Shown here: positions 15,913-25,061 of the stretch, in pieces
Layout of the letters: each line of letters begins with the position of its first letter
Position numbering within the stretch: the first letter of the stretch is position 1
Notes under the pieces: generated by a model
The model's database searches: none
What the model saw: only the letters and a program-made list of their open reading frames with translations
Told to the model about the DNA's origin: nothing
Translations under genes and position numbers: made by a program
DNA from: a bacterium
GTDB taxonomy: Bacteria; Patescibacteriota; Minisyncoccia; Moranbacterales; UBA1568
Direction of reading: 5' to 3'
Length of the DNA: 64,000 bases
Assembly: GCA_021821305.1 (NCBI GenBank)
Contig: JAKACP010000001.1
Span: 748,421-812,420, forward strand

Positions 15913-17943
15913 TCACTTCTTTTTCGCGGATCCCGAACGCCGTTCCTCGAGCGCGCGAATCTCGTCTCGCAGGATCGCGGCCGTCTCGAAATCGAGGAGT
16001 TTCACCGCCGCCTTCATCTCCCGTTCCTTCCGCCGGATGACCCGATCGGGATGTTCGGCGAACCCGACCGCGTCGAGCGCGAGGGATACCTTCACCGCCT
16101 TGTCATGTTCGCTCTCGAGCTGTTCGGTGATGTCGTGAATGTTCTTCTCGATCGTGGCCGGCGTGATGCCGTGCTCGGCGTTGTACGCGAGCTGTCTTGT
16201 CCGCCGCCTTGCGGTCTCGCCGATCGCGCGTTCCATGGAGTCGGTCACGGTGTCGGCATAGAGCGTGACGCGTCCCGAGACGTTTCGGGCGGCACGGCCG
16301 ATGATCTGTATGAGCGAAGTCTCGGACCGCAGGAATCCTTCCTTGTCGGCGTCGAGCACGCCGATGAAGGTCACCTCCGGCAGGTCGAGTCCTTCGCGGA
16401 GGAGGTTCACGCCGACGATACAGTCGAACGTACCCTTGCGGAATTCGGTCAGGATCTTGATACGCTCGATGGTCTTGATGTCGCTGTGGAGATATTCCGC
16501 CTTCATGCCCTTTTCCTTGAGGTAGCGCGAGAGGTCCTCGGCCATGCGTTTGGTGAGGGTCGTCGCGATGACGCGGCCGCCTCGGGACACCTCGAGTTCC
16601 GCCTCGCGGATGAAGTCGCCGATCTGGCCCGGGTAAACGCCCGCCTCGCGGATCGGACGGACGGTGATTTCCGGATCGACGAGTCCCGTCGGACGGATCA
16701 CCTGCTCGACGATATTGCCGCTCACCTCACGCTCGTACTCCGCCGGTGTCGCCGAGGTGAAGATCACGCTTCCGACGCGTTCGTCGAATTCCTCGAACCG
16801 CAGCGGCCGGTTGTCGAGCGCGGAAGGCAGGCGGAATCCGTATTCGACGAGGTTCTTCTTGCGGGCCTGGTCGCCCGCGTACATGCCACGGATCTGCGGC
16901 ACCGTCACGTGCGATTCGTCGATGATGGTCAGGAAATCGGGCGTACCGTCGGGGAGGTGCGGGAAATAGTCGAGGAGCGTCTCGGGCGGCGCGCCCGGTT
17001 CGCGGAGGGAGAGCTGGCGGGAATAGTTCTCGATGCCGTTGCAATATCCGATCTCGGCCATCATCGCGAGGTCGTAGTTCGTCCGGCGTTTGAGCCGCTC
17101 CGCTTCGAGCGGCTTGCCCTCGCCCGCGAATTTCGCGAGCTGTTCCTCGAGTTCGGCGCGGATGTTCGCGATCGCGGTCTCCTGTTTCGCCTTGTCGGTG
17201 ATGAAGTGCTTGGCCGGAAAGAGGAATATCGCGGGAGGGGTGCCGAGGATCTTCTGCGTGACCGGATCGATCTTGGTGATGGCACCGAGCGTCTCTCCCG
17301 AAATCTCGAGGAGGTAGACGGACTTCTCGGATATCGGCATGACCTCGACGCGGTTGCCGATGGCCCGGAACGTCCCCGGGGCGAGGTCCGCGTTCGTCCG
17401 CTCGAAGAAGATGGAGACCAGGGAACGGAGGAGCTCCGTCCGCGAACACCGCGCCCCGACCTCGAGCCTGAGGTTCTCCTTCTCGTATTCCGCGGGACTG
17501 CCGAGCCCGTAGATGCACGAGACCGACGCGACGATGATCGTGTCGCGACGGGTGAGGAGCGACTGCGTCGACGCGTGCCGCAGGCGGTCGATCTCGGCGT
17601 TGATCTGCGCGTCCTTCTCGATGTAGGTGTCGGTGATCGGCATGTACGCTTCCGGCTGGTAGTAGTCGTAGTAGGAGACGAAATAGTGCACGGCGTTGTC
17701 CGGGAAGAACGCCTGGTACTCCTGCGCGAGCTGTGCGGCGAGCGTCTTGTTGTGCGCGATGACGAGCGTCGGCTTGCCATGGGCGGCGATGACGTTGGCC
17801 GCGGTGAACGTCTTGCCGGAGCCGGTCACGCCGAGGAGCGTCTGGCGTGGCACACCGCGGGATAGCCCGTCCAAGAGGGAGGCGATAGCGACCGGCTGAT
17901 CGCCGGCAGGCTCATATGGGGACTGAAGGTTGAAGACGGACAT
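15913..17943 (-). CDS. uvrB: excinuclease ABC subunit B (UvrB)
   Basis: LLGVTGSGKTFT Walker A, beta-hairpin/helicase motifs. Start at MSVFNLQSPYEPAGDQP (17943), preceded by TTGTGT-17-TATAAA only 4 nt upstream (leaderless). Confidence 0.95.
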   Translation of the reverse strand: MSVFNLQSPYEPAGDQPVAIASLLDGLSRGVPRQTLLGVTGSGKTFTAANVIAAHGKPTLVIAHNKTLAAQLAQEYQAFFPDNAVHYFVSYYDYYQPEAYMPITDTYIEKDAQINAEIDRLRHASTQSLLTRRDTIIVASVSCIYGLGSPAEYEKENLRLEVGARCSRTELLRSLVSIFFERTNADLAPGTFRAIGNRVEVMPISEKSVYLLEISGETLGAITKIDPVTQKILGTPPAIFLFPAKHFITDKAKQETAIANIRAELEEQLAKFAGEGKPLEAERLKRRTNYDLAMMAEIGYCNGIENYSRQLSLREPGAPPETLLDYFPHLPDGTPDFLTIIDESHVTVPQIRGMYAGDQARKKNLVEYGFRLPSALDNRPLRFEEFDERVGSVIFTSATPAEYEREVSGNIVEQVIRPTGLVDPEITVRPIREAGVYPGQIGDFIREAELEVSRGGRVIATTLTKRMAEDLSRYLKEKGMKAEYLHSDIKTIERIKILTEFRKGTFDCIVGVNLLREGLDLPEVTFIGVLDADKEGFLRSETSLIQIIGRAARNVSGRVTLYADTVTDSMERAIGETARRRTRQLAYNAEHGITPATIEKNIHDITEQLESEHDKAVKVSLALDAVGFAEHPDRVIRRKEREMKAAVKLLDFETAAILRDEIRALEERRSGSAKKK

Positions 17944-18100
17944 ACTTTTATAGAGACACAAAACACGGAACACAAACATCCAAACCAACTGAAGTTAATC
18001 CTTTTAATTTTTTGTTTTTGGTTTTGTTTGGCTTTTTGCGCTTTGGGTTTTGTGTTTTCTTGAAAAGACTCTTCCGCACCGTCCCTGACACCACTGCCAC
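17944..18100. repeat. intergenic imperfect-palindromic repeat, copy A (AAAACACAAA ... TTTGTTTGGCTTTTTGCGCTTTGGGTTTTGTGTTTT)
   Basis: Shares a ~45-nt core and inverted AAAACAC/GTGTTTT arms with the copies at 40811 and 51141. Sits between the DedA stop and the uvrB start. Confidence 0.7.
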
Positions 18101-18744
18101 AGCCATATCCCCCGCTTGCGATGATACCAGAGCAGGAACAGGAGGGCGACGAACGAGACGGCGATCGTGATATCGGCATAGTACTTGAGCCCGATCACGG
18201 TATGGAAGAATTTCCGCAGGGCGACGATGCCAGTATACCCGATGAGGAGATAGACGAAGTCCTTGAGGAAGTTGCCGAGAAAGGTCGCGATGAGGAAGGT
18301 GCGCTTCGACATCTTGATGACGCCGGCGGCGATCGATATCGGCGCGGTCGGGAGGAACGGGACGAGGCGGAGCGAGAAGAGGATCAATCCGTCCTTCCAG
18401 TGACCGGTGAATTTCGCGCCGATGCTCTCGATTCCCGCGTGCGTCACGCCGAAGAACCGCCCGATCTTCCTCACCGCGAAGTCTTCCATCTTGTCCCCGA
18501 GCACGTAGTAGAAGAACGACCCGATGATCTTTCCCGCATTGCCGATGACGGACAACCAGACGAGGAAAAGGAGCGTCTTGGCATCCGCCGCCGCGAGCGA
18601 CCCGGCAAGCCCCATGATGAGGGTCGATGGGATCGGACTGATCACTTCCTCGAGAAACGACCCGATGAACACGAACGCTTCGAGCGGAACCGTCTGGGAA
18701 AACGCTTGGAGCCACGATTCGACGATCGCAAGGATATTCATCAT
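18004..18744 (-). CDS. DedA/VTT-domain family membrane protein; C-terminal ~35 aa tail encoded by repeat copy A
   Basis: Typical DedA core (GSFLEEVISPIP...LRLVPFLP...). After ...LLFLLWYHRKRG the frame continues through the repeat, giving a K/T/Q-rich tail to the stop at 18004. Confidence 0.8.
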   Translation of the reverse strand: MMNILAIVESWLQAFSQTVPLEAFVFIGSFLEEVISPIPSTLIMGLAGSLAAADAKTLLFLVWLSVIGNAGKIIGSFFYYVLGDKMEDFAVRKIGRFFGVTHAGIESIGAKFTGHWKDGLILFSLRLVPFLPTAPISIAAGVIKMSKRTFLIATFLGNFLKDFVYLLIGYTGIVALRKFFHTVIGLKYYADITIAVSFVALLFLLWYHRKRGIWLWQWCQGRCGRVFSRKHKTQSAKSQTKPKTKN

Positions 18745-19000
18745 ACCGGACCAGTATACCATGTGCAAGCCGTGCTGTCGGCCCCGCGGTCACGGCGGAA
18801 CTGAGGTGAGGACGGGAAAAATGAAGAGCCGCCCGGAATGTTTCCGTGCGGCTTTATTTGGTTGCAGCGAGAGCCCGTCACCGGCATTATCACGACCTTG
18901 TGAGTCGGATACGGGCCTATTAAGCCCGGTCTAGAACAGTGGATTTCTCCGACACTCGCTGCAACTGGAATATTATACCACTTATTTAAATATAAGTCAA

Positions 19001-21049
19001 CTATAGTCCGAGCTCGCCTTTCTTCCCCCAGGTATCGATATCATAGGCATAGGCCGCGTCCTCGCTCACGATATAGAAGACATCGTCGATGAACAGCGCC
19101 CGTTTGATACGGTCGCCCTTGGCAGCTTTCGCGAGCGAGAGCTCATTCCCCTCATGCGAGAAGGCGTATCCTCCCTGATATCCCGGAATGAAGAAGATGT
19201 CGTGTGCCGGATCGGCGAGGAAGGCGTGGTGGTTCTGCATGGCTTCCGACCAGTACTCATCGAGGACGTATTTCGAGACCTCGCGCGGCTCATCCGGAGA
19301 CGACACGTCGAACAAGGAGAGTTTCACCTTGTCATCCTCCTTGCCGACACCGAGGATCAGATCATCGCCGAGCGGGTGCAGATAGGACGAGTATCCCGGA
19401 ATCTTCAGTTCCCCGGCCAGGCGCGGTTTATCCGGATCGGAGAGATCGAGCACGTAGAACGGATCGGTCTCCTTGAACGTCACGAGGTATCCGGTCTCAC
19501 CGATGAACCGCGCGGCGTAGATCCGCTCGCCCTGACCCAGGTCGAGCAGGCGGCCTTCCCGATCGAGATCCGCGTCGAGCACGTAGACATCGTTGGCGCT
19601 CGCATCGCTGTTCACCCATCCGAACCCGAACGATTGCCGGCCGCCGACCGTCGTCGCGACGCGCAGGCGACCGTCATATTCGTCGAGCGAGAACTGGTTG
19701 AGGAGATACCCGGGAACCGATCCCTCCGCCGCGAGCGACAGATCCGACAACGAGAGCTTCGCGATGCCGGTCGACCCGAGTTCCCGGAGATGGGTCTTGG
19801 CGTAGTCGGTCATCCGGTTCTGCACCTCGCTTTGGAATCGGAGACGGTCGTCGGCATCGCGCGAAAAGAGCGCCTGTTCCATGATCCGCGAGAACTCCGT
19901 CATCTTCGCGTCCTGGCCGATATCGTAGCCGGCAAGCTTCTCGAGCCGCTCGAATATCCCTTCGGGAAGCAGATCGCGGTTGCCGCGGAAAAATCCGAGG
20001 ATGTACCCCATCGGGTCACCCGCCTCCGGGAAGGTCGCGTAGACGGCGTTCTCGCTCATATAGACCGTCGACTGGCCGGAGGACCCGACGAACGACGTCT
20101 TCGCCTTGGCGGCGCCGGTCTTCGGGTCGACCGCGACCGCGGCGAACACCGCGTCCACGAAGGACGGGACGGCCGGCCGATAGATATCGACGCAGGCGAT
20201 CGAGAGCTTCTCGGCGCCGACCGAAAACGGGGTTATCGGACACGGGGAGGATTCGTTCACCCAGGTTTTTTCGACGAGGTAGAGCGTATCTCCGTATTTC
20301 CTCGCCGCGAGAAGCTCGGTCCCGTCGGTCTGCCGGAGCACCCATTTTTCCTTCGGGTTCGCCTTGTCCGAGATATCGAAGGCGGCGATATCGCGCCGCG
20401 ACAGATCGAACACGACGAGCGTGTCACCGAAGAGGAGCATCTCTCCGCTCCGTCCCAGCGAAGCCACCTTCGACATCGCTTCCGCCGGAACCGCGGAGAT
20501 GATATCCGTCCGTCCCGTCGGAACGTATGCCGGGACGGTACCGCTCTCCCCCGGAGCGAGCAGACTCGCTTCCGTATCGGCGGCGCGCTTTTCCATGACC
20601 GGGCTGTCGAGTATGCGGTAGTCCGGTTCACGCGAGAAATATATGGTCGATCCGTCCGTCTTCACGATATCCGGCTCGTCGATCCCCGCGACCTGGACGT
20701 TCGTCTCGGAAAATCGTTCCGGTGTCGCGGTGGATTTCACGGAGGTCTCCGGTGTCGCGGCATCCAGGGTCATGACGTCGCCCCCCATCCGTCCGCCCAT
20801 ACCGAACCCGGACGATTGGGCCGCTCGGGCCGCGACGAGGTAGCTTCTGAACTCCTCCTCGCTTCCGAACTTCCCGATATCCCCGACACGACCCGCGTCG
20901 GGCGAACCCGCCTTCGGCAGGACATCCGACAGACGGCCTTTCATGTTCCCGATCTCGCGTATCGATGGTATGAGCGCGACGATCGCCGCGAGTATCCCGA
21001 ACAGCGCGAGGAGCAACCCGAGCGCGAGGAGAAGTCGTTTCGTTTGCAT
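19001..21049 (-). CDS. membrane-anchored beta-propeller domain protein (Beta_propel / PF09826-like)
   Basis: N-terminal TM (LLLALGLLLALFGILAAIVALIP) and recurrent YVLD/LSLFDVS/FYVLDLSDP blade-like motifs. 682 aa. Confidence 0.65.
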   Translation of the reverse strand: MQTKRLLLALGLLLALFGILAAIVALIPSIREIGNMKGRLSDVLPKAGSPDAGRVGDIGKFGSEEEFRSYLVAARAAQSSGFGMGGRMGGDVMTLDAATPETSVKSTATPERFSETNVQVAGIDEPDIVKTDGSTIYFSREPDYRILDSPVMEKRAADTEASLLAPGESGTVPAYVPTGRTDIISAVPAEAMSKVASLGRSGEMLLFGDTLVVFDLSRRDIAAFDISDKANPKEKWVLRQTDGTELLAARKYGDTLYLVEKTWVNESSPCPITPFSVGAEKLSIACVDIYRPAVPSFVDAVFAAVAVDPKTGAAKAKTSFVGSSGQSTVYMSENAVYATFPEAGDPMGYILGFFRGNRDLLPEGIFERLEKLAGYDIGQDAKMTEFSRIMEQALFSRDADDRLRFQSEVQNRMTDYAKTHLRELGSTGIAKLSLSDLSLAAEGSVPGYLLNQFSLDEYDGRLRVATTVGGRQSFGFGWVNSDASANDVYVLDADLDREGRLLDLGQGERIYAARFIGETGYLVTFKETDPFYVLDLSDPDKPRLAGELKIPGYSSYLHPLGDDLILGVGKEDDKVKLSLFDVSSPDEPREVSKYVLDEYWSEAMQNHHAFLADPAHDIFFIPGYQGGYAFSHEGNELSLAKAAKGDRIKRALFIDDVFYIVSEDAAYAYDIDTWGKKGELGL

Positions 21050-21118
21050 GGCATTTGTATGAACGTATTCGCCTCCAGTATATCAGAAACTGTCCGACAT
21101 GAGATCTCGGGCAGTTTC

Positions 21119-22654
21119 TTATAACCCGAGCTTCGCGAGCCGCGAGCGTATGCCGCCCGGCTCGCGGCCGAGGATCGCGGCGATCTCGGCGACGGAAAGT
21201 TCCTTGCGATGCATCGCACGCAGTTCCGCCTCCTCCTCTTCGCTCCATCGCCGATAGGCGCCGGGACGTTTTTCCTTCCTTTGTTTTCCCGGAACGGTTT
21301 TCTTCTTCGGTTTCGCCTTTTCGCTCGACCGCACCTCGCCACCGCTCCGCCTTATGAACGTTTCGGACTGGTCCCGAAGCTCCGTTTCGGAGAGAGCGGC
21401 GTATCGGGCCCGCGCCTCGTCGGACGCGGCTCGGAAGAGTGCATCCTGCTCCGATACCCCGGGATGGACGCGGAACGCCTGCGCGGAAACGCCGAGAAGA
21501 TGTACTCCCTCGAGTGTCCGCACCCGGGAGAGCGCGACATACCCCTGTCCGAACTCGAATACCCGGGAGAGGTCCATCACCGCGGCGTCGAGGCTCATGC
21601 CCTGGCTCTTGTGTATCGTCATGGCCCAGGCCAATCGGAGCGGAATCTGTATGATCTTGGCGAGCGGTTCCCCGTCCTCCTCGAGCAGCCACTCCATCGG
21701 TTCGACCGTGATGCGCTTGCCTTCCCGTGTCTCGATGATCGGGTAGCGGCGTTCATCGGCGAATCCGACCACCGTACCGAGCGTGCCGTTTACGAACCCG
21801 GCGCTCGGATTGTTCTTGGTGCAGACGACGGACGCGCCCTCCTTGAGCTCGAGACGTTCCGGAGACAGGCATCCCTTCTTGAGCGAGGCGACGAGCCCCT
21901 CGGGGCCGCGTTCCGCCATGACGAATACCCATGTCTTCCCGGAAAGGCGCGCGAGTTCGCGCGCGTTAAGCGTGTCCACGTTGGTGTTGTGCGAATACAG
22001 CCGCACGACCTCGGGAGGAACCGGCAACCGTACCGAGAGCCGCGCCTCGATGCGCTCGAAATGCGTCTCGTCGAATTCGTCCCGGCGGATCGCTCCGAGC
22101 ACCTCGAGAAACGCCCGGTCCTCCTGCCGGTACTGTTCCTCGAGATAACAGACGGCGGGCGAAAGCGATCGCCACGCGGCCGACTCGAACGCGAAGGTGA
22201 CCCGCTCCCCTCCCCGCGATACCGGCGGAAGCTGAAAGAAATCGCCAACGAAGACGACCTGCATGCCGCCCCACGGCTCCTCGGACTTGCGTGCCCTGCG
22301 GCAGACCCTCTCGACCATGTCGAGCGTGTCGCCGTCTATCATCGACACCTCGTCGATGATGAGCGTGCGGCAGTTCTTGATGCGGCGCGCGATGTATCTC
22401 CCGCGGGCGATGTCGGTTATATCCCCGTCGGTAAGATGCCGGCGGATGCCGATACCGCTCCACGAGTGGAGCGTCATGCCGTGGATATGCGTCGCGGCGA
22501 TGCCCGTCGATGCCGTGATGGCGGGTTCGATGCCGCGGTCGCGCAGGTAGCGGACGTAGCGGTTTACGGTATGCGTCTTTCCCGATCCGGGCTCTCCGGT
22601 CAGAAACACGCTCGCTCCGGTCTTGAGTATGGTCAGAGCCTCTTCTTGGGTCAT
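21119..22654 (-). CDS. PIF1/RecD-like SF1 helicase with C-terminal sigma70-region-4-like HTH
   Basis: LTGEPGSGKTH Walker A, LIIDEVSMID Walker B, QGMSLD and YVALSRVR Pif1 motifs. C-terminal WSEEEEAELRAMHRKELSVAEIAAILGREPGGIRSRL HTH. Confidence 0.8.
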   Translation of the reverse strand: MTQEEALTILKTGASVFLTGEPGSGKTHTVNRYVRYLRDRGIEPAITASTGIAATHIHGMTLHSWSGIGIRRHLTDGDITDIARGRYIARRIKNCRTLIIDEVSMIDGDTLDMVERVCRRARKSEEPWGGMQVVFVGDFFQLPPVSRGGERVTFAFESAAWRSLSPAVCYLEEQYRQEDRAFLEVLGAIRRDEFDETHFERIEARLSVRLPVPPEVVRLYSHNTNVDTLNARELARLSGKTWVFVMAERGPEGLVASLKKGCLSPERLELKEGASVVCTKNNPSAGFVNGTLGTVVGFADERRYPIIETREGKRITVEPMEWLLEEDGEPLAKIIQIPLRLAWAMTIHKSQGMSLDAAVMDLSRVFEFGQGYVALSRVRTLEGVHLLGVSAQAFRVHPGVSEQDALFRAASDEARARYAALSETELRDQSETFIRRSGGEVRSSEKAKPKKKTVPGKQRKEKRPGAYRRWSEEEEAELRAMHRKELSVAEIAAILGREPGGIRSRLAKLGL

Positions 22655-22687
22655 AGGTATCAGGGCGATGAGATATCGGACGGTTAC

Positions 22688-23047
22688 TTAGCTCATGAAA
22701 TCGGGATCGCCGTCCAAGCGGGCATGCCAGGCGGCCACGTTGGTATAGACATAGAGGACGAGCACGACCAGAAAGAGTCCGGACAGATGTTCCGCATCGG
22801 GAGCGGCCGCGCCGATGAGGAGAACGGTCATGGGAAAAGAGATGAGCGGAAGCGCTATGTCGCTCGCCACGTTCCACGATGCCTCACGGAGACGGAAGCG
22901 CATCTCCAGAAGTTCCCAAAAAACCGCGAACGCGAAGGTGAGGAAAAACATGGGCAGTACCGGCAACGCGAACACGGCCGCGAACAGCGCGGCCACCGCC
23001 CCGGACAGGAAGTGCGGTATGGACCAGAAGTCGAGCAGTGTCTTCAT
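22688..23047 (-). CDS. small integral membrane protein (3-4 TM), unknown function
   Basis: Hydrophobic throughout. Start at MKTLLDFWSIPHFL (23047). Confidence 0.45.
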   Translation of the reverse strand: MKTLLDFWSIPHFLSGAVAALFAAVFALPVLPMFFLTFAFAVFWELLEMRFRLREASWNVASDIALPLISFPMTVLLIGAAAPDAEHLSGLFLVVLVLYVYTNVAAWHARLDGDPDFMS

Positions 23048-23141
23048 ATGGGTCCACTGTACCATATTCGACCACCCGCGAACAAAGAAAACGAAAAATC
23101 CGCCGTGAAGGCGGATTTTCGATCGTCAGTTAGGCGAAGCT

Positions 23142-24416
23142 CTACGCTCGGAATTTGTCGATGAAAGTGAGGGCGCTTCCCGATTTGCTCCCGCGACCGG
23201 TCCGACCGATACGGTGGATATAGTCCTCGTAGGTCGCCGGCAGATCGTAGTTGATGACATGCGTCACGCCATCGATATCGAGGCCGCGCGCCGCCACATC
23301 GGTCGCGACGAGCACGCTGACCTTCCCCGCGCGGAAGCCGTCGAGCGCGCGCTTGCGCTGACCCTGTGACAGATCGCCATGGATGGCGTCGGCCTGGAAG
23401 CCGCGGATCTTGAGCGTCTTCGCGAGCTTGGCCGCGCCGTACTTGGTACGCAGGAAGATGATCGACTTCTCGAACTCGGGCTTGAGGAGGAGATCATGGA
23501 GTATCTCGACCTTCTTCTCCCGGCTCTCGGAATAGATGACGTCCTGGTCGACGTTCTCGGAGGTGGCACGGGACGACGGGATGGAGATCATGATCGGGTC
23601 CTGGAGGAACTTCATCGCGAGGTCCTTGGCTCCGCGCTCGAGCGTAGCCGAAAAGAAGAGCGACTGCCGCTTCTCGGGAAGCAGGGAGAGGAGATGTCGG
23701 ATTTCCTTGACGAATCCCATGTCGAGCATGCGGTCCACCTCATCGAGGACGACATTGCTGTAATCGGGCATCATGAGGAACTTCCGATCGATCAGGTCCT
23801 TGACCCGTCCCGGGGTACCGATGACGAAGTTCGGCGAGCGACGCACGTCGCGCGCCTGCTTATCGAGATGCACGCCGCCGATCGTGAGCACGGAGGCAAG
23901 GTTCATCCCGCGCGCGAATTCCTTGAATTCCTCCTCGATCTGGACGGCGAGTTCACGCGTCGGGACGAGGATGATCGCGCGTTCCTTGGGATGGAGGAGC
24001 GCCTTGTTGATGAGCGGAATGAGGAACGCGGCGGTCTTGCCGGTTCCGGTATTGGCGATACCGATGAGGTCGCGTCCCTTCAGGATATGCGGGATCGCAC
24101 CGTCCTGGATCGGGGTCGGATGCTCGTAGTTCCGCCGTGCGATGGACGCCTTGAGGCGTTCCTCTATATGGAAATCGGCGAAGCGATGCTCCGGATGGAA
24201 AGCGACGGTCTCGGTCTTCTCTATCGCCTTGCGGACGAACATGGAGACGTCGAGGCCAAGCTGACCCTTCTGCTTCTTGGCACCGCGCTTCATGTCGCGG
24301 AACGTGAACGGATTGTTCCCCTTCTTGACCGGACCGGTGTATTTCTTCGGCCCGCGCGACCCGCCGAATCCCCCGGATCCGGTCTTTTTTGCTCCCGTAT
24401 AAGATTTCTTGTACAT
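23142..24416 (-). CDS. DEAD-box ATP-dependent RNA helicase with basic G/K-rich N-terminal extension
   Basis: Q-motif (PTPIQ), NTGTGKTAAF, VPTRELA, DEVD, SAT and HRIGRTGR motifs. Confidence 0.9.
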   Translation of the reverse strand: MYKKSYTGAKKTGSGGFGGSRGPKKYTGPVKKGNNPFTFRDMKRGAKKQKGQLGLDVSMFVRKAIEKTETVAFHPEHRFADFHIEERLKASIARRNYEHPTPIQDGAIPHILKGRDLIGIANTGTGKTAAFLIPLINKALLHPKERAIILVPTRELAVQIEEEFKEFARGMNLASVLTIGGVHLDKQARDVRRSPNFVIGTPGRVKDLIDRKFLMMPDYSNVVLDEVDRMLDMGFVKEIRHLLSLLPEKRQSLFFSATLERGAKDLAMKFLQDPIMISIPSSRATSENVDQDVIYSESREKKVEILHDLLLKPEFEKSIIFLRTKYGAAKLAKTLKIRGFQADAIHGDLSQGQRKRALDGFRAGKVSVLVATDVAARGLDIDGVTHVINYDLPATYEDYIHRIGRTGRGSKSGSALTFIDKFRA

Positions 24417-24496
24417 GATTCTCTATGATTATCTACTAAAAAAGCGCCTGTGAGGCACTTGTTCAATAGATGAAAAAAGATACCATACAGCGATTC

Positions 24497-24525
24497 ACTA
24501 TATCACTTCCTCGTTGCGATGTCAA
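24497..24525 (-). promoter_or_regulatory. sigma70 promoter TTGACA-17-TATAGT driving the DEAD-box helicase gene
   Basis: Reverse strand ttgaca (24525-24520), 17-nt spacer, tatagt (24502-24497). About 80 nt upstream of the ATG at 24416. Confidence 0.6.
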
Positions 24526-24605
24526 GTGCGCACGACCCGACGCCCGGAGCGCGAACCCCGGAGAAAACAGAAATCCCGATCGGACGGACCGAACGGGATC
24601 CTTGT

Positions 24606-24630
24606 TCTTGGCGGGGACGAAGGGACTCGG
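24606..24630. repeat. 25-bp direct repeat copy of the tRNA-Asp 3' end (att-like)
   Basis: tcttggcggggacgaagggactcgg is identical to 24802-24826, i.e. the T-loop, acceptor 3' strand and CCA plus 3 flanking nt of tRNA-Asp, 175 bp downstream of the tRNA. Confidence 0.75.
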
Positions 24631-24804
24631 TCACGGATAATCCGCTCGCCGTCGCGACCGGATTTCCGCGACCCCGGCTCGCGGTTTCGCGTGCTCGCGA
24701 AACATCGCTCCGCCTTCCTCGTCCCTACGCAAGCGAAGCAGTTCGCTTGCTTCGTCTTCCGAAAGAAAACGAAATCCTGACCATATGGTCGGGATTTGTG
24801 ATCT

Positions 24805-24881
24805 TGGCGGGGACGAAGGGACTCGGACCCTCGACCTCCACAGTGACAGTGTGGCGCTCTAACCAGCTGAGCTACGCCCCC
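24805..24881 (-). tRNA. tRNA-Asp (GTC), CCA encoded
   Basis: Manual cloverleaf: GGGGGCG acceptor, anticodon loop CTGTCAC, TTCGAGT-type T-loop. 77 nt. Confidence 0.85.
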
Positions 24882-24987
24882 AAGATGACTTCCTCGTATA
24901 TCCGATACCACAATCCAATCACCAAACAATCACTCCGTTTGGTTGTTGGAGCCTGGTCCCCGGTCTTTTTTCAAGAGTACCAGGGGA

Positions 24988-25061
24988 GAGATTCGAACTC
25001 TCGACCCCGGGCTTATGAGTCCCGTGCTCTAACCAACTGAGCTACCCTGGCGATAGATAGT
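24988..25061 (-). tRNA. tRNA with CAT anticodon (elongator Met or lysidine-type Ile2), no encoded CCA
   Basis: GCCAGGG acceptor, anticodon loop CTCATAA, TTCGAAT T-loop. Confidence 0.75.

What the first reader, a model, noticed from the sequence alone, without database searches (positions are those of the whole stretch)
24606..24881. 25-bp direct repeat of the tRNA-Asp 3' end 175 bp downstream: att-like scar
The last 22 nt of tRNA-Asp, including CCA, plus 3 flanking nt (tcttggcggggacgaagggactcgg) recur exactly at 24606-24630. This is the signature left by tyrosine-integrase elements that integrate into tRNA 3' ends, but here only 175 bp lie between the repeats. That stretch is packed with palindromes: GACCATATGGTC, GCAAGCGAA-N-TTCGCTTGC, and CGCGAGC...GCGAGCC repeats. 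It is either the remnant of an excised or deleted island (useful for locating a hot spot in relatives) or a decayed second tRNA-Asp copy. The tRNA cluster is also adjacent to the helicase genes (Pif1-like, DEAD-box).
Basis: partly seen in the sequence, partly recalled or inferred. Interest (0 to 1): 0.5.

Follow-up and report, generated by a model that had tools for sequence, protein, structure and literature searches.

The report
Small insertion scar at tRNA-Asp end
The last 25 bases of a tRNA-Asp gene are repeated 196 bases downstream around a gene-less, hairpin-rich 171-base insert that a sister strain lacks exactly; related inserts sit behind tRNA-Asp in many other Patescibacteria, so this is a small, integrase-less insertion at a recurrent hot spot rather than a decayed tRNA copy.

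Summary
An exact 25-mer (tRNA-Asp positions 55-76 plus AGA) lies at 24606-24630 and 24802-24826, with 171 nt between the copies.

The organism is a Candidatus Moranbacteria (CPR). A 98.4%-identical strain (L002) lacks exactly one repeat plus the 171 nt, so an empty site exists. A 10%-diverged species group carries the same insert and the same right junction, once upstream of a different operon (L024) and once with an internal deletion (L019).

The insert shows no tRNA homology, so the decayed-tRNA reading is rejected. It holds a terminator-like hairpin and a roughly 100-nt structured module that abuts the distal repeat.

Homologous modules, absent from Rfam, follow tRNA-Asp in other metagenome contigs. 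Their 5' strand covaries with the tRNA fragment. One closes a 1.4-kb gene-bearing insertion. In the same loci, 16 of 107 tRNA-Asp genes have a downstream 3'-end copy, against 0 of 147 other tRNAs.

The geometry matches attL/attR: a variable terminator after the intact tRNA, and the host's native terminator after the distal copy. No integrase was found in the window or in any related locus.

Verdict: an old, cargo-less, integrase-less insertion or remnant at a tRNA-Asp hot spot. The enzyme and the role of the module are unknown. Interest is moderate.

The parts
24805..24881 (-). tRNA-Asp (GTC), last gene of an Ile-Met-Met-Asp cluster; CCA is encoded
   Evidence: ARAGORN; Rfam RF00005 at 66.4 bits
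24802..24826 (-). Proximal repeat copy C: tRNA positions 55-76 plus AGA. It completes the functional tRNA (attL-like side).
   Evidence: Exact 25-mer; sequence reading
24758..24797 (-). Terminator-like hairpin H1 (AAAUCCCGACC-AUAU-GGUCAGGAUUU) with a U-rich tract. It is insert-borne and resembles the only terminator of relative L008.
   Evidence: Palindrome I7; fold; comparison with L008
24729..24750 (-). Hairpin H3 (GCAAGCGAA-CUGC-UUCGCUUGC). It is identical in L024 and kept through compensatory changes in L012 and L003.
   Evidence: I12
24631..24728 (-). Structured module. Its 5' strand GGGACGAGG (24717-24725) pairs with the distal repeat. It also holds a purine-rich linker, hairpin A (24684-24703), hairpin B (24629-24673) and the palindrome CGGAUUAUCCG (24634-24644).
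   Evidence: MFE three-way junction, -73.3 kcal/mol, z = -5.9. 91% identical to L024 over aligned bases against 54-81% for tRNA spacers. Homologues found.
24606..24630 (-). Distal repeat copy C' (attR-like tRNA fragment). It is 25/25 identical in L024 and has the same junction in L019-L021.
24561..24599 (-). Terminator T2 (AUCCCG...CGGGAU plus UUCUGUUUUCUC), the host-native tRNA-Asp terminator. It follows the tRNA directly in the empty-site strain L002.
   Evidence: Terminator scan; L002 sequence
24497..24525 (-). Sigma-70-type promoter (TTGACA-17-TATAGT) of the DEAD-box helicase gene. Homology to relatives that lack the tRNA cluster begins here, so it marks the boundary of the variable region.
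   Evidence: Promoter scan, 11 of 12 matches; L006 and L018 alignments start at 24526

Best explanation
The two 25-mers are the attL-like and attR-like ends of a small DNA insertion into the 3' end of the tRNA-Asp gene.

The inserted unit is 196 bp. It brought a replacement for tRNA positions 55-76, its own terminator-like hairpin (H1), hairpin H3, and a roughly 100-nt structured module. The original tRNA 3' end and the native terminator (T2) were displaced downstream.

The unit carries no gene and no recombinase. It belongs to a family of short inserts found only behind tRNA-Asp in Patescibacteria. All family members end in a homologous structured module that abuts the displaced tRNA fragment. 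The 5' strand of that module is complementary to the fragment.

The copy in this window is old. It is shared with a species group about 10% diverged and has been eroded by deletions in several lineages. In one sister strain it has been lost precisely at the repeats.

Shown here: the repeat, the empty site, the orthologous and paralogous copies, the specificity for tRNA-Asp, the absence of tRNA homology in the insert, and the conserved structure.

Inferred: the original event was site-specific recombination by a recombinase acting in trans, encoded elsewhere in the genome or on a lost autonomous element. Also inferred: the precise loss in L002 is either excision by such an enzyme or slippage/recombination between the 25-bp repeats.
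For: (1) The 25-mer is exact and far beyond chance.

(2) L002 is 98.4% identical over 7 kb and 100% identical in the adjacent helicase gene. It reads tRNA...CCAAGA|ACAAGGATCCCG, which is one repeat with 196 bp missing. The repeat is shorter than the assembler's k-mer, as I recall Logan's k = 31, so assembly collapse is unlikely.

(3) L017, at 99.2% identity, carries the same insert.

(4) L024, from the species group about 10% diverged, has tRNA-Asp, a terminator, the insert, a second core and a T2-like terminator upstream of a macAB-type operon. L019-L021 have the same right junction, CGGATTATCCGTGA|core, with an internal deletion and a 48-bp repeat. L012 and L003 keep only the left part.

(5) In the second clade, the terminator after the distal copy (TGAAAAAAGTAGCTC..GAGCTATTTTTTG) is conserved. 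It follows the tRNA directly in the insert-free relatives L136, L058 and L086. The terminator right after the intact tRNA differs from locus to locus. This is the geometry expected of integration by recombination within the tRNA 3' end.

(6) In L107 the distal copy differs from the resident tRNA 3' end at position 68, so the two copies have different origins.

(7) Cargo occurs elsewhere. L145 has a 328-aa ORF followed by the module and a tRNA fragment 1.43 kb from the tRNA. L051 and L096 have a Gp49/HTH_3 toxin-antitoxin pair between 29-bp repeats.

(8) 16 of 107 tRNA-Asp genes against 0 of 147 other tRNAs in the same loci have a downstream 3'-end copy.

(9) No tRNA homology is present in the insert.

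(10) Partial tRNA genes as attR sites, and degenerate remnants accumulating at tRNA sites, are documented (PMC9897764; bioRxiv 10.1101/2020.12.28.424599).
Against: No tyrosine recombinase was detected in the 64-kb window (tblastn) or among 1682 ORFs from about 145 related loci (phmmer). The XerD query was validated against Pfam. A single-sequence search can miss distant integrases and says nothing about serine or other recombinases.

No full-size island was seen at this site in any relative. Contigs do not break more often downstream of tRNA-Asp than upstream.

A 196-bp, or in L019 an 80-bp, unit is too small to be an autonomous element or an easily formed double-stranded circle.

The left limit of repeat identity varies between lineages, from position 51 to 60. 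This is not what a single integrase with a fixed crossover in the T-loop would give.

Three kinds of single-terminator relatives exist in the window's own clade (L002, L008, L005). The model therefore needs secondary deletions or allele exchange to explain two of them.

The higher conservation of the module could reflect recombination between lineages rather than constraint: the Met-Asp spacer shows the opposite mosaic pattern.
Confidence: 0.55

Rival explanations
1. Recombinase-independent origin. The tRNA 3' end plus terminator was duplicated locally by replication slippage, template switching or unequal crossing-over. The stretch in between is ordinary fast-evolving spacer. All variants, including the precise loss in L002, are deletions between short repeats.
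For: Decayed similarity continues beyond the 25-mer into both terminator hairpins and their U-rich tails (D4, D6). The deletion variants have breakpoints in short repeats: GGATTTC for L008, GCGG for L019 and CGCGAG for L024. Tandem-unit repeats starting in the tRNA 3' end occur in L036 and L069, and decayed tandem tRNA copies occur in L067, L078 and L081. No recombinase was found.
Against: This does not explain why only tRNA-Asp is affected, 16 of 107 against 0 of 147. It does not explain why a homologous structured module abuts the fragment in distant lineages with different tRNA-Asp sequences. It does not explain why the terminator after the distal copy is the conserved native one while the proximal one varies. 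It does not explain why the two copies differ at position 68 in L107, or why cargo genes lie between the copies in L145 and L051.
Confidence: 0.17
2. The module plus tRNA fragment is a functional non-coding RNA, a structured 3' trailer or small RNA transcribed with or after the tRNA operon. Its closing helix uses the tRNA-like 3' end. The repeat is kept by selection on that RNA rather than as a recombination site. This can coexist with an insertional origin.
For: The fold is strong (z = -5.9 and -7.1). On 5 homologues a consensus structure has 86% of cells paired against 30-47% when the partners are slid, and a covariation score of 0.288 against 0.197 (1 of 500 shuffles reach it). Helices hold 12 G.U against 1 A.C, though that structure was predicted on the sense strand, which itself favours G.U. 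Sense-strand folding is better than antisense in 6 of 8 members. Substitutions in the window clade keep pairing through wobble: A to G in L012 and C to U in L024. H3, the module and C' are 91-100% identical between species whose tRNA spacers are 54-81% identical.
Against: No promoter was recognised in front of the module, and a terminator-like hairpin lies between it and the tRNA. The module is absent or truncated in close relatives with no visible replacement: L002, L008, L019 and L012. The pairing register with the fragment differs between clades, positions 62-71 against 59-67. There is no Rfam family. Only 5-8 sequences are available. A folded single-stranded DNA site would leave the same signals.
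Confidence: 0.2
3. A decayed second tRNA-Asp gene, a tandem pseudogene of which only the 3' end is still recognisable.
For: This is what is seen in other lineages, where residual D-arm and anticodon-arm homology survives (L048, L067, L078, L081, L124).
Against: ARAGORN finds nothing in 24550-24804 at 100%, 95% or 80% thresholds. The Rfam tRNA model has no hit at E up to 10. tRNA positions 1-54 align to the insert no better than 970 of 1000 shuffles. The fragment is perfectly conserved while its upstream neighbour is an unrelated conserved module.
Confidence: 0.03

Closest known systems
Partial tRNA genes (attR fragments) left by integrative elements, and degenerate remnants at tRNA-linked islands (PMC9897764; tycheposon islands of Prochlorococcus, bioRxiv 10.1101/2020.12.28.424599)
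   Same: A direct repeat of the tRNA 3' part, with one copy completing an intact tRNA. Host-native sequence follows the distal copy. Presence and absence vary between strains. Several fragments can sit in tandem (L145, L055). Small cargo occurs in some loci.
   Different: No integrase or integrase fragment was found at any of the sites examined. The inserts are only 60-1400 bp. A conserved structured module always abuts the fragment. A single tRNA species is used.
CIMEs (cis-mobilizable elements): att-flanked elements lacking recombination genes, mobilised by a related ICE (own knowledge: Pavlovic et al. 2004, Bellanger et al. 2011, Streptococcus thermophilus)
   Same: Flanked by att repeats, with no integrase of their own and presumably dependent on an enzyme supplied in trans.
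   Different: CIMEs are kilobases long, carry genes, and have a known autonomous partner. No autonomous partner is known here, and mobilisation was not tested.
Integron gene cassettes with folded attC sites (own knowledge)
   Same: Short, promoter-less, recombinase-less units inserted at one fixed site. Each ends in a structured element whose two ends pair. The structure is more conserved than the sequence. Toxin-antitoxin cargo occurs.
   Different: No IntI gene lies next to the site. There is no GTTRRRY core. The repeats are 17-48 bp of tRNA sequence rather than 7 bp. The structure is multi-branched rather than a single imperfect hairpin.
IMEX elements such as CTX-phi, which integrate through a folded single-stranded attP using host XerCD (own knowledge)
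   Same: No recombinase in the element. An inverted copy of the target sequence pairs with a direct copy about 100 nt away to form a stem.
   Different: The target here is a tRNA gene rather than dif. The stem is only 8-9 bp. No phage genes are present.

Membership tests
attL/attR pair of an element integrated into a tRNA gene 3' end | Direct repeat made of the 3' part of a tRNA gene, with one copy completing an intact tRNA | tested here: met
   Exact 25-mer covering positions 55-76 plus 3 nt
attL/attR pair of an element integrated into a tRNA gene 3' end | A close relative with the empty site: one repeat, with the intervening DNA absent to the base | tested here: met
   L002
attL/attR pair of an element integrated into a tRNA gene 3' end | The distal copy is followed by the host's native downstream sequence; the proximal copy is followed by element sequence | tested here: met
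   T2 follows the tRNA directly in L002. The native terminator follows the tRNA in L136, L058 and L086 and follows the distal copy in L121, L045, L120 and L145.
attL/attR pair of an element integrated into a tRNA gene 3' end | An integrase gene inside or beside the element | tested here: not met
   tblastn of XerD against the window. phmmer against 1682 ORFs from the window and about 145 loci gave no hit. The query was validated. The rest of the genome could not be searched.
attL/attR pair of an element integrated into a tRNA gene 3' end | Foreign genes between the repeats | tested here: not met
   The 171 nt in the window are non-coding. The one small ORF is not conserved, because the 16-nt indel in L024 shifts its frame. 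Cargo is present only in distant relatives L145 and L051.
attL/attR pair of an element integrated into a tRNA gene 3' end | Demonstrated excision or a circular junction | not testable with these tools
   This needs the raw reads of SRR13304626, SRR28285720 and ERZ534008.
Decayed tandem tRNA pseudogene | Residual D-arm or anticodon-arm homology upstream of the fragment | tested here: not met
   ARAGORN at lowered thresholds, the Rfam tRNA model and an alignment with shuffle control
Integron cassette / attC | IntI next to the insertion site, and a 7-bp core GTTRRRY at the cassette ends | tested here: not met
   No tyrosine recombinase was found in any locus. The junctions are tRNA sequence.
MITE or IS-type transposon | Terminal inverted repeats with a short target duplication (2-15 bp); copies dispersed in the genome | tested here: not met
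   The repeats are 17-48 bp. There is no second copy in the window. The module is found only behind tRNA-Asp in about 1 Mb of loci.
Any described RNA family (Rfam 15) | A covariance-model match at or near the gathering score | tested here: not met
   Only tRNAs reach threshold. The best other match is 24.5 bits against a 79-bit threshold.

The most novel reading that the evidence does not exclude
The structured module plus tRNA fragment may be the recombination site, or a guide-like RNA, of an undescribed class of integrase-less mini-cassettes. These would insert specifically at the 3' end of tRNA-Asp in Patescibacteria. The module's 5' strand would read the target by base pairing, since it covaries with the host's tRNA-Asp sequence. 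The system would be analogous to attC sites or to folded attP of IMEX elements, but aimed at a tRNA gene and served by an unknown host enzyme.
Probability: 0.25. Interest if true: 0.75.

Novelty: new variant of a known kind. Interest (0 to 1): 0.45.

Why it matters
tRNA-fragment repeats are routinely used to find genomic islands. Here the repeats enclose only a conserved structured element and no recombinase. The pattern recurs at a single tRNA species across a phylum whose mobile elements are poorly known.

If the module is an active recombination site or RNA, it would point to a trans-acting insertion system in the streamlined genomes of CPR bacteria. It would also mark a defined place where small cargo, such as toxin-antitoxin pairs, enters these genomes. 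If it is only a scar, it is still a useful marker of a strain-variable hot spot. It also warns annotators: public gene calls place a 173-aa ORF across it.

Tried and rejected
Collection scans for the 22-mer core: 0 matches in viral contigs, 0 in JGI metagenomes, and 3 single-copy loci in GTDB genomes.

Viral scans for the junction, a shorter core and a module pattern returned only two chance hits, L025 and L026.

Integrase search: nothing found.

Rfam at gathering and permissive thresholds: nothing found.

Small ORF in the module (MFREHAKPRAGVAEIRSRRRADYP): rejected. L012 has ATC in place of ATG, and the 16-nt indel in L024 shifts the frame.

Inverted copies of the tRNA 3' end inside the insert: significant only in L003 (2 of 1000 shuffles), and not in the window (96 of 1000) or L012 (79 of 1000). 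I therefore do not rely on them.

Other tRNAs of the window show no such repeats.

The idea that large elements hide behind assembly breaks is not supported: contig ends are as frequent upstream of tRNA-Asp as downstream.

Descent of the module's 5' strand from the T-stem 5' strand of a tRNA: the alignment is not better than chance.

The DEAD-box orthologue at 69% identity (L007) and the relative at 80% (L022) are not syntenic with the tRNA-Asp/DEAD-box arrangement here and gave no information on the insert.

Full report
**Observation**

The 25-mer TCTTGGCGGGGACGAAGGGACTCGG is present exactly twice, at 24606-24630 and 24802-24826. No further match appears at up to 3 mismatches, and none in 100 shuffles. 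tRNA-Asp(GTC) lies at 24805-24881 on the minus strand. It is the last gene of an Ile-Met-Met-Asp cluster.

The repeat therefore covers tRNA positions 55-76, with CCA encoded, plus AGA. The copies are 196 bp apart start to start, with 171 bp between them. A DEAD-box helicase gene (24416-23142) follows on the same strand. Its promoter, TTGACA-17-TATAGT, is at 24525-24497.

**Organism and close relatives**

Helicase homologues are named Candidatus Moranbacteria or Moraniibacteriota, placing the organism in the CPR/Patescibacteria. I fetched contigs encoding the same or nearly the same helicase. They show the following arrangements.

- L001 is identical to the window.
- L017 is 99.2% identical and has the same doubled arrangement.
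- L002 is 98.4% identical over 7 kb, and 100% identical in the helicase gene. It reads tRNA-Asp...CCGCCAAGA|ACAAGGATCCCG. That is one repeat, followed directly by the hairpin that follows the distal copy in the window. This is a base-precise empty site.

A second species group is 94-97% identical within itself and about 90% identical to the window. It shows four arrangements.

- L024 has HhH-GPD, the tRNA cluster, tRNA-Asp, a terminator, the same insert with a 16-nt internal deletion, a second 25-mer, and a T2-like terminator. A 3.2-kb macAB-type operon then precedes the helicase gene.
- L019-L021 have a 48-bp exact repeat with only 32 nt between the copies. The left and right ends of the insert are joined, and the right junction CGGATTATCCGTGA|core is the same as in the window.
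- L012-L014 have the insert's left and central parts but no second core.
- L006 and L018 show the macAB end directly upstream of the helicase promoter.

L008-L010, at about 88%, have one core and an H1-like terminator. Among GTDB genomes, L003 has the left part of the insert in front of macA, and L005 has none.

The insert plus second core therefore belongs to tRNA-Asp and not to the downstream gene. It predates about 10% sequence divergence, and it has been trimmed repeatedly at short repeats.

**The insert is not a tRNA remnant**

ARAGORN finds nothing in 24550-24804 at 100%, 95% or 80% of its thresholds. The Rfam tRNA model gives no hit at E up to 10. tRNA positions 1-54 align to the insert no better than 970 of 1000 shuffles.

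**Anatomy on the tRNA strand**

After the tRNA comes hairpin H1 with a U-rich tract, and then hairpin H3. A roughly 100-nt module follows. Its 5' strand, GGGACGAGG, pairs with CCUUCGUCCC of the distal copy and encloses two hairpins (-73.3 kcal/mol, z = -5.9).

Between the window and L024 the identities are as follows:

| Segment | Identity |
|---|---|
| H3 | 100% |
| Module | 91% over aligned bases |
| Distal 25-mer | 25/25 |
| tRNA spacers | 54-81% |
| Proximal terminator region | 71% |
| Distal terminator | 76% |

H3 keeps its helix through double changes in L012 and L003. Changes in the module's 5' strand keep pairing through wobble: A to G in L012 and C to U in L024.

**Generality**

I scanned JGI metagenomes for the tRNA-Asp anticodon arm, which gave 120 loci. 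A copy of the last 16 nt of the tRNA, with at most 2 mismatches, within 2.5 kb downstream and not inside another tRNA, is present for 16 of 107 tRNA-Asp genes. It is present for 0 of 147 other tRNAs in the same loci. The cases fall into three classes.

- Decayed tandem tRNA-Asp copies or tandem unit repeats: L036, L048, L067, L069, L078, L081, L124.
- GC-rich structured inserts like the one here: L135, L121, L107, L045, L126, L145, with partial versions in L055 and L120.
- Cargo-bearing inserts. L051 and L096 carry a Gp49 plus HTH_3 toxin-antitoxin pair between 29-bp repeats. L145 carries a 328-aa ORF followed by the module and a fragment 1.43 kb from the tRNA.

The structured inserts share three features with the window: a 5' motif GGRCGARRA, a purine-rich linker, and a first hairpin. 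nhmmer finds them nowhere else in about 1 Mb of loci. Rfam has no match.

On five of them, RNAalifold closes the structure with a helix between the module's 5' strand and the start of the tRNA fragment. One pair switches A-U/G-C/G-U together with T-loop position 60 of the host tRNA. Overall, 86% of cells are paired, against 30-47% when the partners are slid. The covariation score is 0.288 against 0.197, and 1 of 500 shuffles reach it.

Helices hold 12 G.U against 1 A.C. The sense strand folds better than the antisense strand in 6 of 8 members. With so few sequences, and with a structure predicted on that strand, this is suggestive rather than proof. It cannot separate RNA from folded single-stranded DNA.

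**Geometry**

In that second clade the terminator after the distal fragment is conserved. It is the one that follows the tRNA directly in the insert-free relatives L136, L058 and L086. The terminator after the intact tRNA differs from locus to locus. In L107 the fragment differs from the resident tRNA 3' end at position 68. In the window's clade, T2 is what follows the tRNA in L002.

This is the arrangement produced when a circular DNA carrying a copy of the tRNA 3' end recombines within that sequence. The incoming copy completes the tRNA, and the native 3' end and terminator are displaced (established knowledge; PMC9897764; bioRxiv 10.1101/2020.12.28.424599).

**What is missing**

No tyrosine recombinase was found in the window or among 1682 ORFs of all loci. 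The XerD query was confirmed as a Phage_integrase member. No large island was found, and there is no excess of contig breaks downstream of tRNA-Asp. No match to the core, the junction or the module was found in IMG/VR.

The left limit of repeat identity ranges from position 51 to 60 between lineages. The pairing register of the module with the fragment also differs between clades. Three different single-terminator relatives in the window's clade need secondary deletions or allele exchange. There is evidence of mosaic recombination among these lineages, which weakens conservation as an argument for function.

**Conclusion**

The most likely reading (0.55) is an old, cargo-less, integrase-less insertion at the tRNA-Asp 3' end with attL/attR geometry. 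It belongs to a family of small inserts that end in a conserved structured module, and it was lost precisely in a sister strain. The recombination enzyme is unknown, and so is whether the module acts as DNA site or RNA.

The rivals are a purely local duplication (0.17), a functional trailer RNA as the reason the unit persists (0.2, not exclusive of the insertion reading), and a decayed tRNA (0.03, tested and rejected).

As a single locus this is an ordinary att-like scar. As a recurrent, tRNA-Asp-specific, structured and recombinase-less unit in Patescibacteria it is a new variant worth a targeted follow-up.

Noticed in passing
window 24826-24827 (tRNA-Asp T-loop): The T-loop reads TCCGAGT, with C at position 55 where U (pseudouridine 55) is almost universal. 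The other tRNAs of the window have TTCGAA. Among the 120 metagenome tRNA-Asp genes, 3 also have TCCGA.
   Followed up: partly
window 24526-24605 versus L024 3770-6980: A 3.2-kb macA / ABC ATPase / MacB-permease operon lies between tRNA-Asp and the DEAD-box gene in L024, L018 and L006. It is absent in the window, L012, L019 and L008, although L012, L019 and L024 are 94-97% identical. This is a second presence/absence polymorphism in the same intergenic region.
   Followed up: partly
window 24417-24496 (5' UTR of the DEAD-box gene; hairpin 24442-24460): A terminator-like hairpin with a U-run (AAGUGCCUCACAGGCGCUUUUUU) lies between the promoter and the start codon. It is conserved in all relatives, including L022 at 80% identity, and may be a leader or attenuator of the helicase gene.
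   Followed up: no
window 24519-25040 (+): A 173-aa ORF antisense to tRNA-Asp, tRNA-Met and the insert is called as a gene in public assemblies (L001 7480-8001, L017 2377-2898). It is very likely an annotation artefact.
   Followed up: no
L126 2170-2260; L044 and L104 just after tRNA-Asp: A different small palindromic insert, AGCTAAGCTTGGCAATTGG[GC]ACGCTTAGCGTCCCGCCA, sits at or inside the tRNA-Asp 3' end or its fragment. It regenerates CCCGCCA and looks like a second kind of mini-insert at the same hot spot.
   Followed up: no
L002 versus window 17656-24630: The helicase gene of L002 is 100% identical to the window, while the following genes bring the overall identity down to 98.4%. The Met-Asp spacer of the window resembles L012 rather than L024, whereas the insert resembles L024. 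Both point to short-tract recombination among these lineages.
   Followed up: partly
window 24875-24881 versus L024 and L019: The acceptor stem 5' strand is GGGGGCG in the window (G5.U68 wobble) but GGGGACG in L024 and L019 (A5-U68), with the same 3' strand.
   Followed up: no
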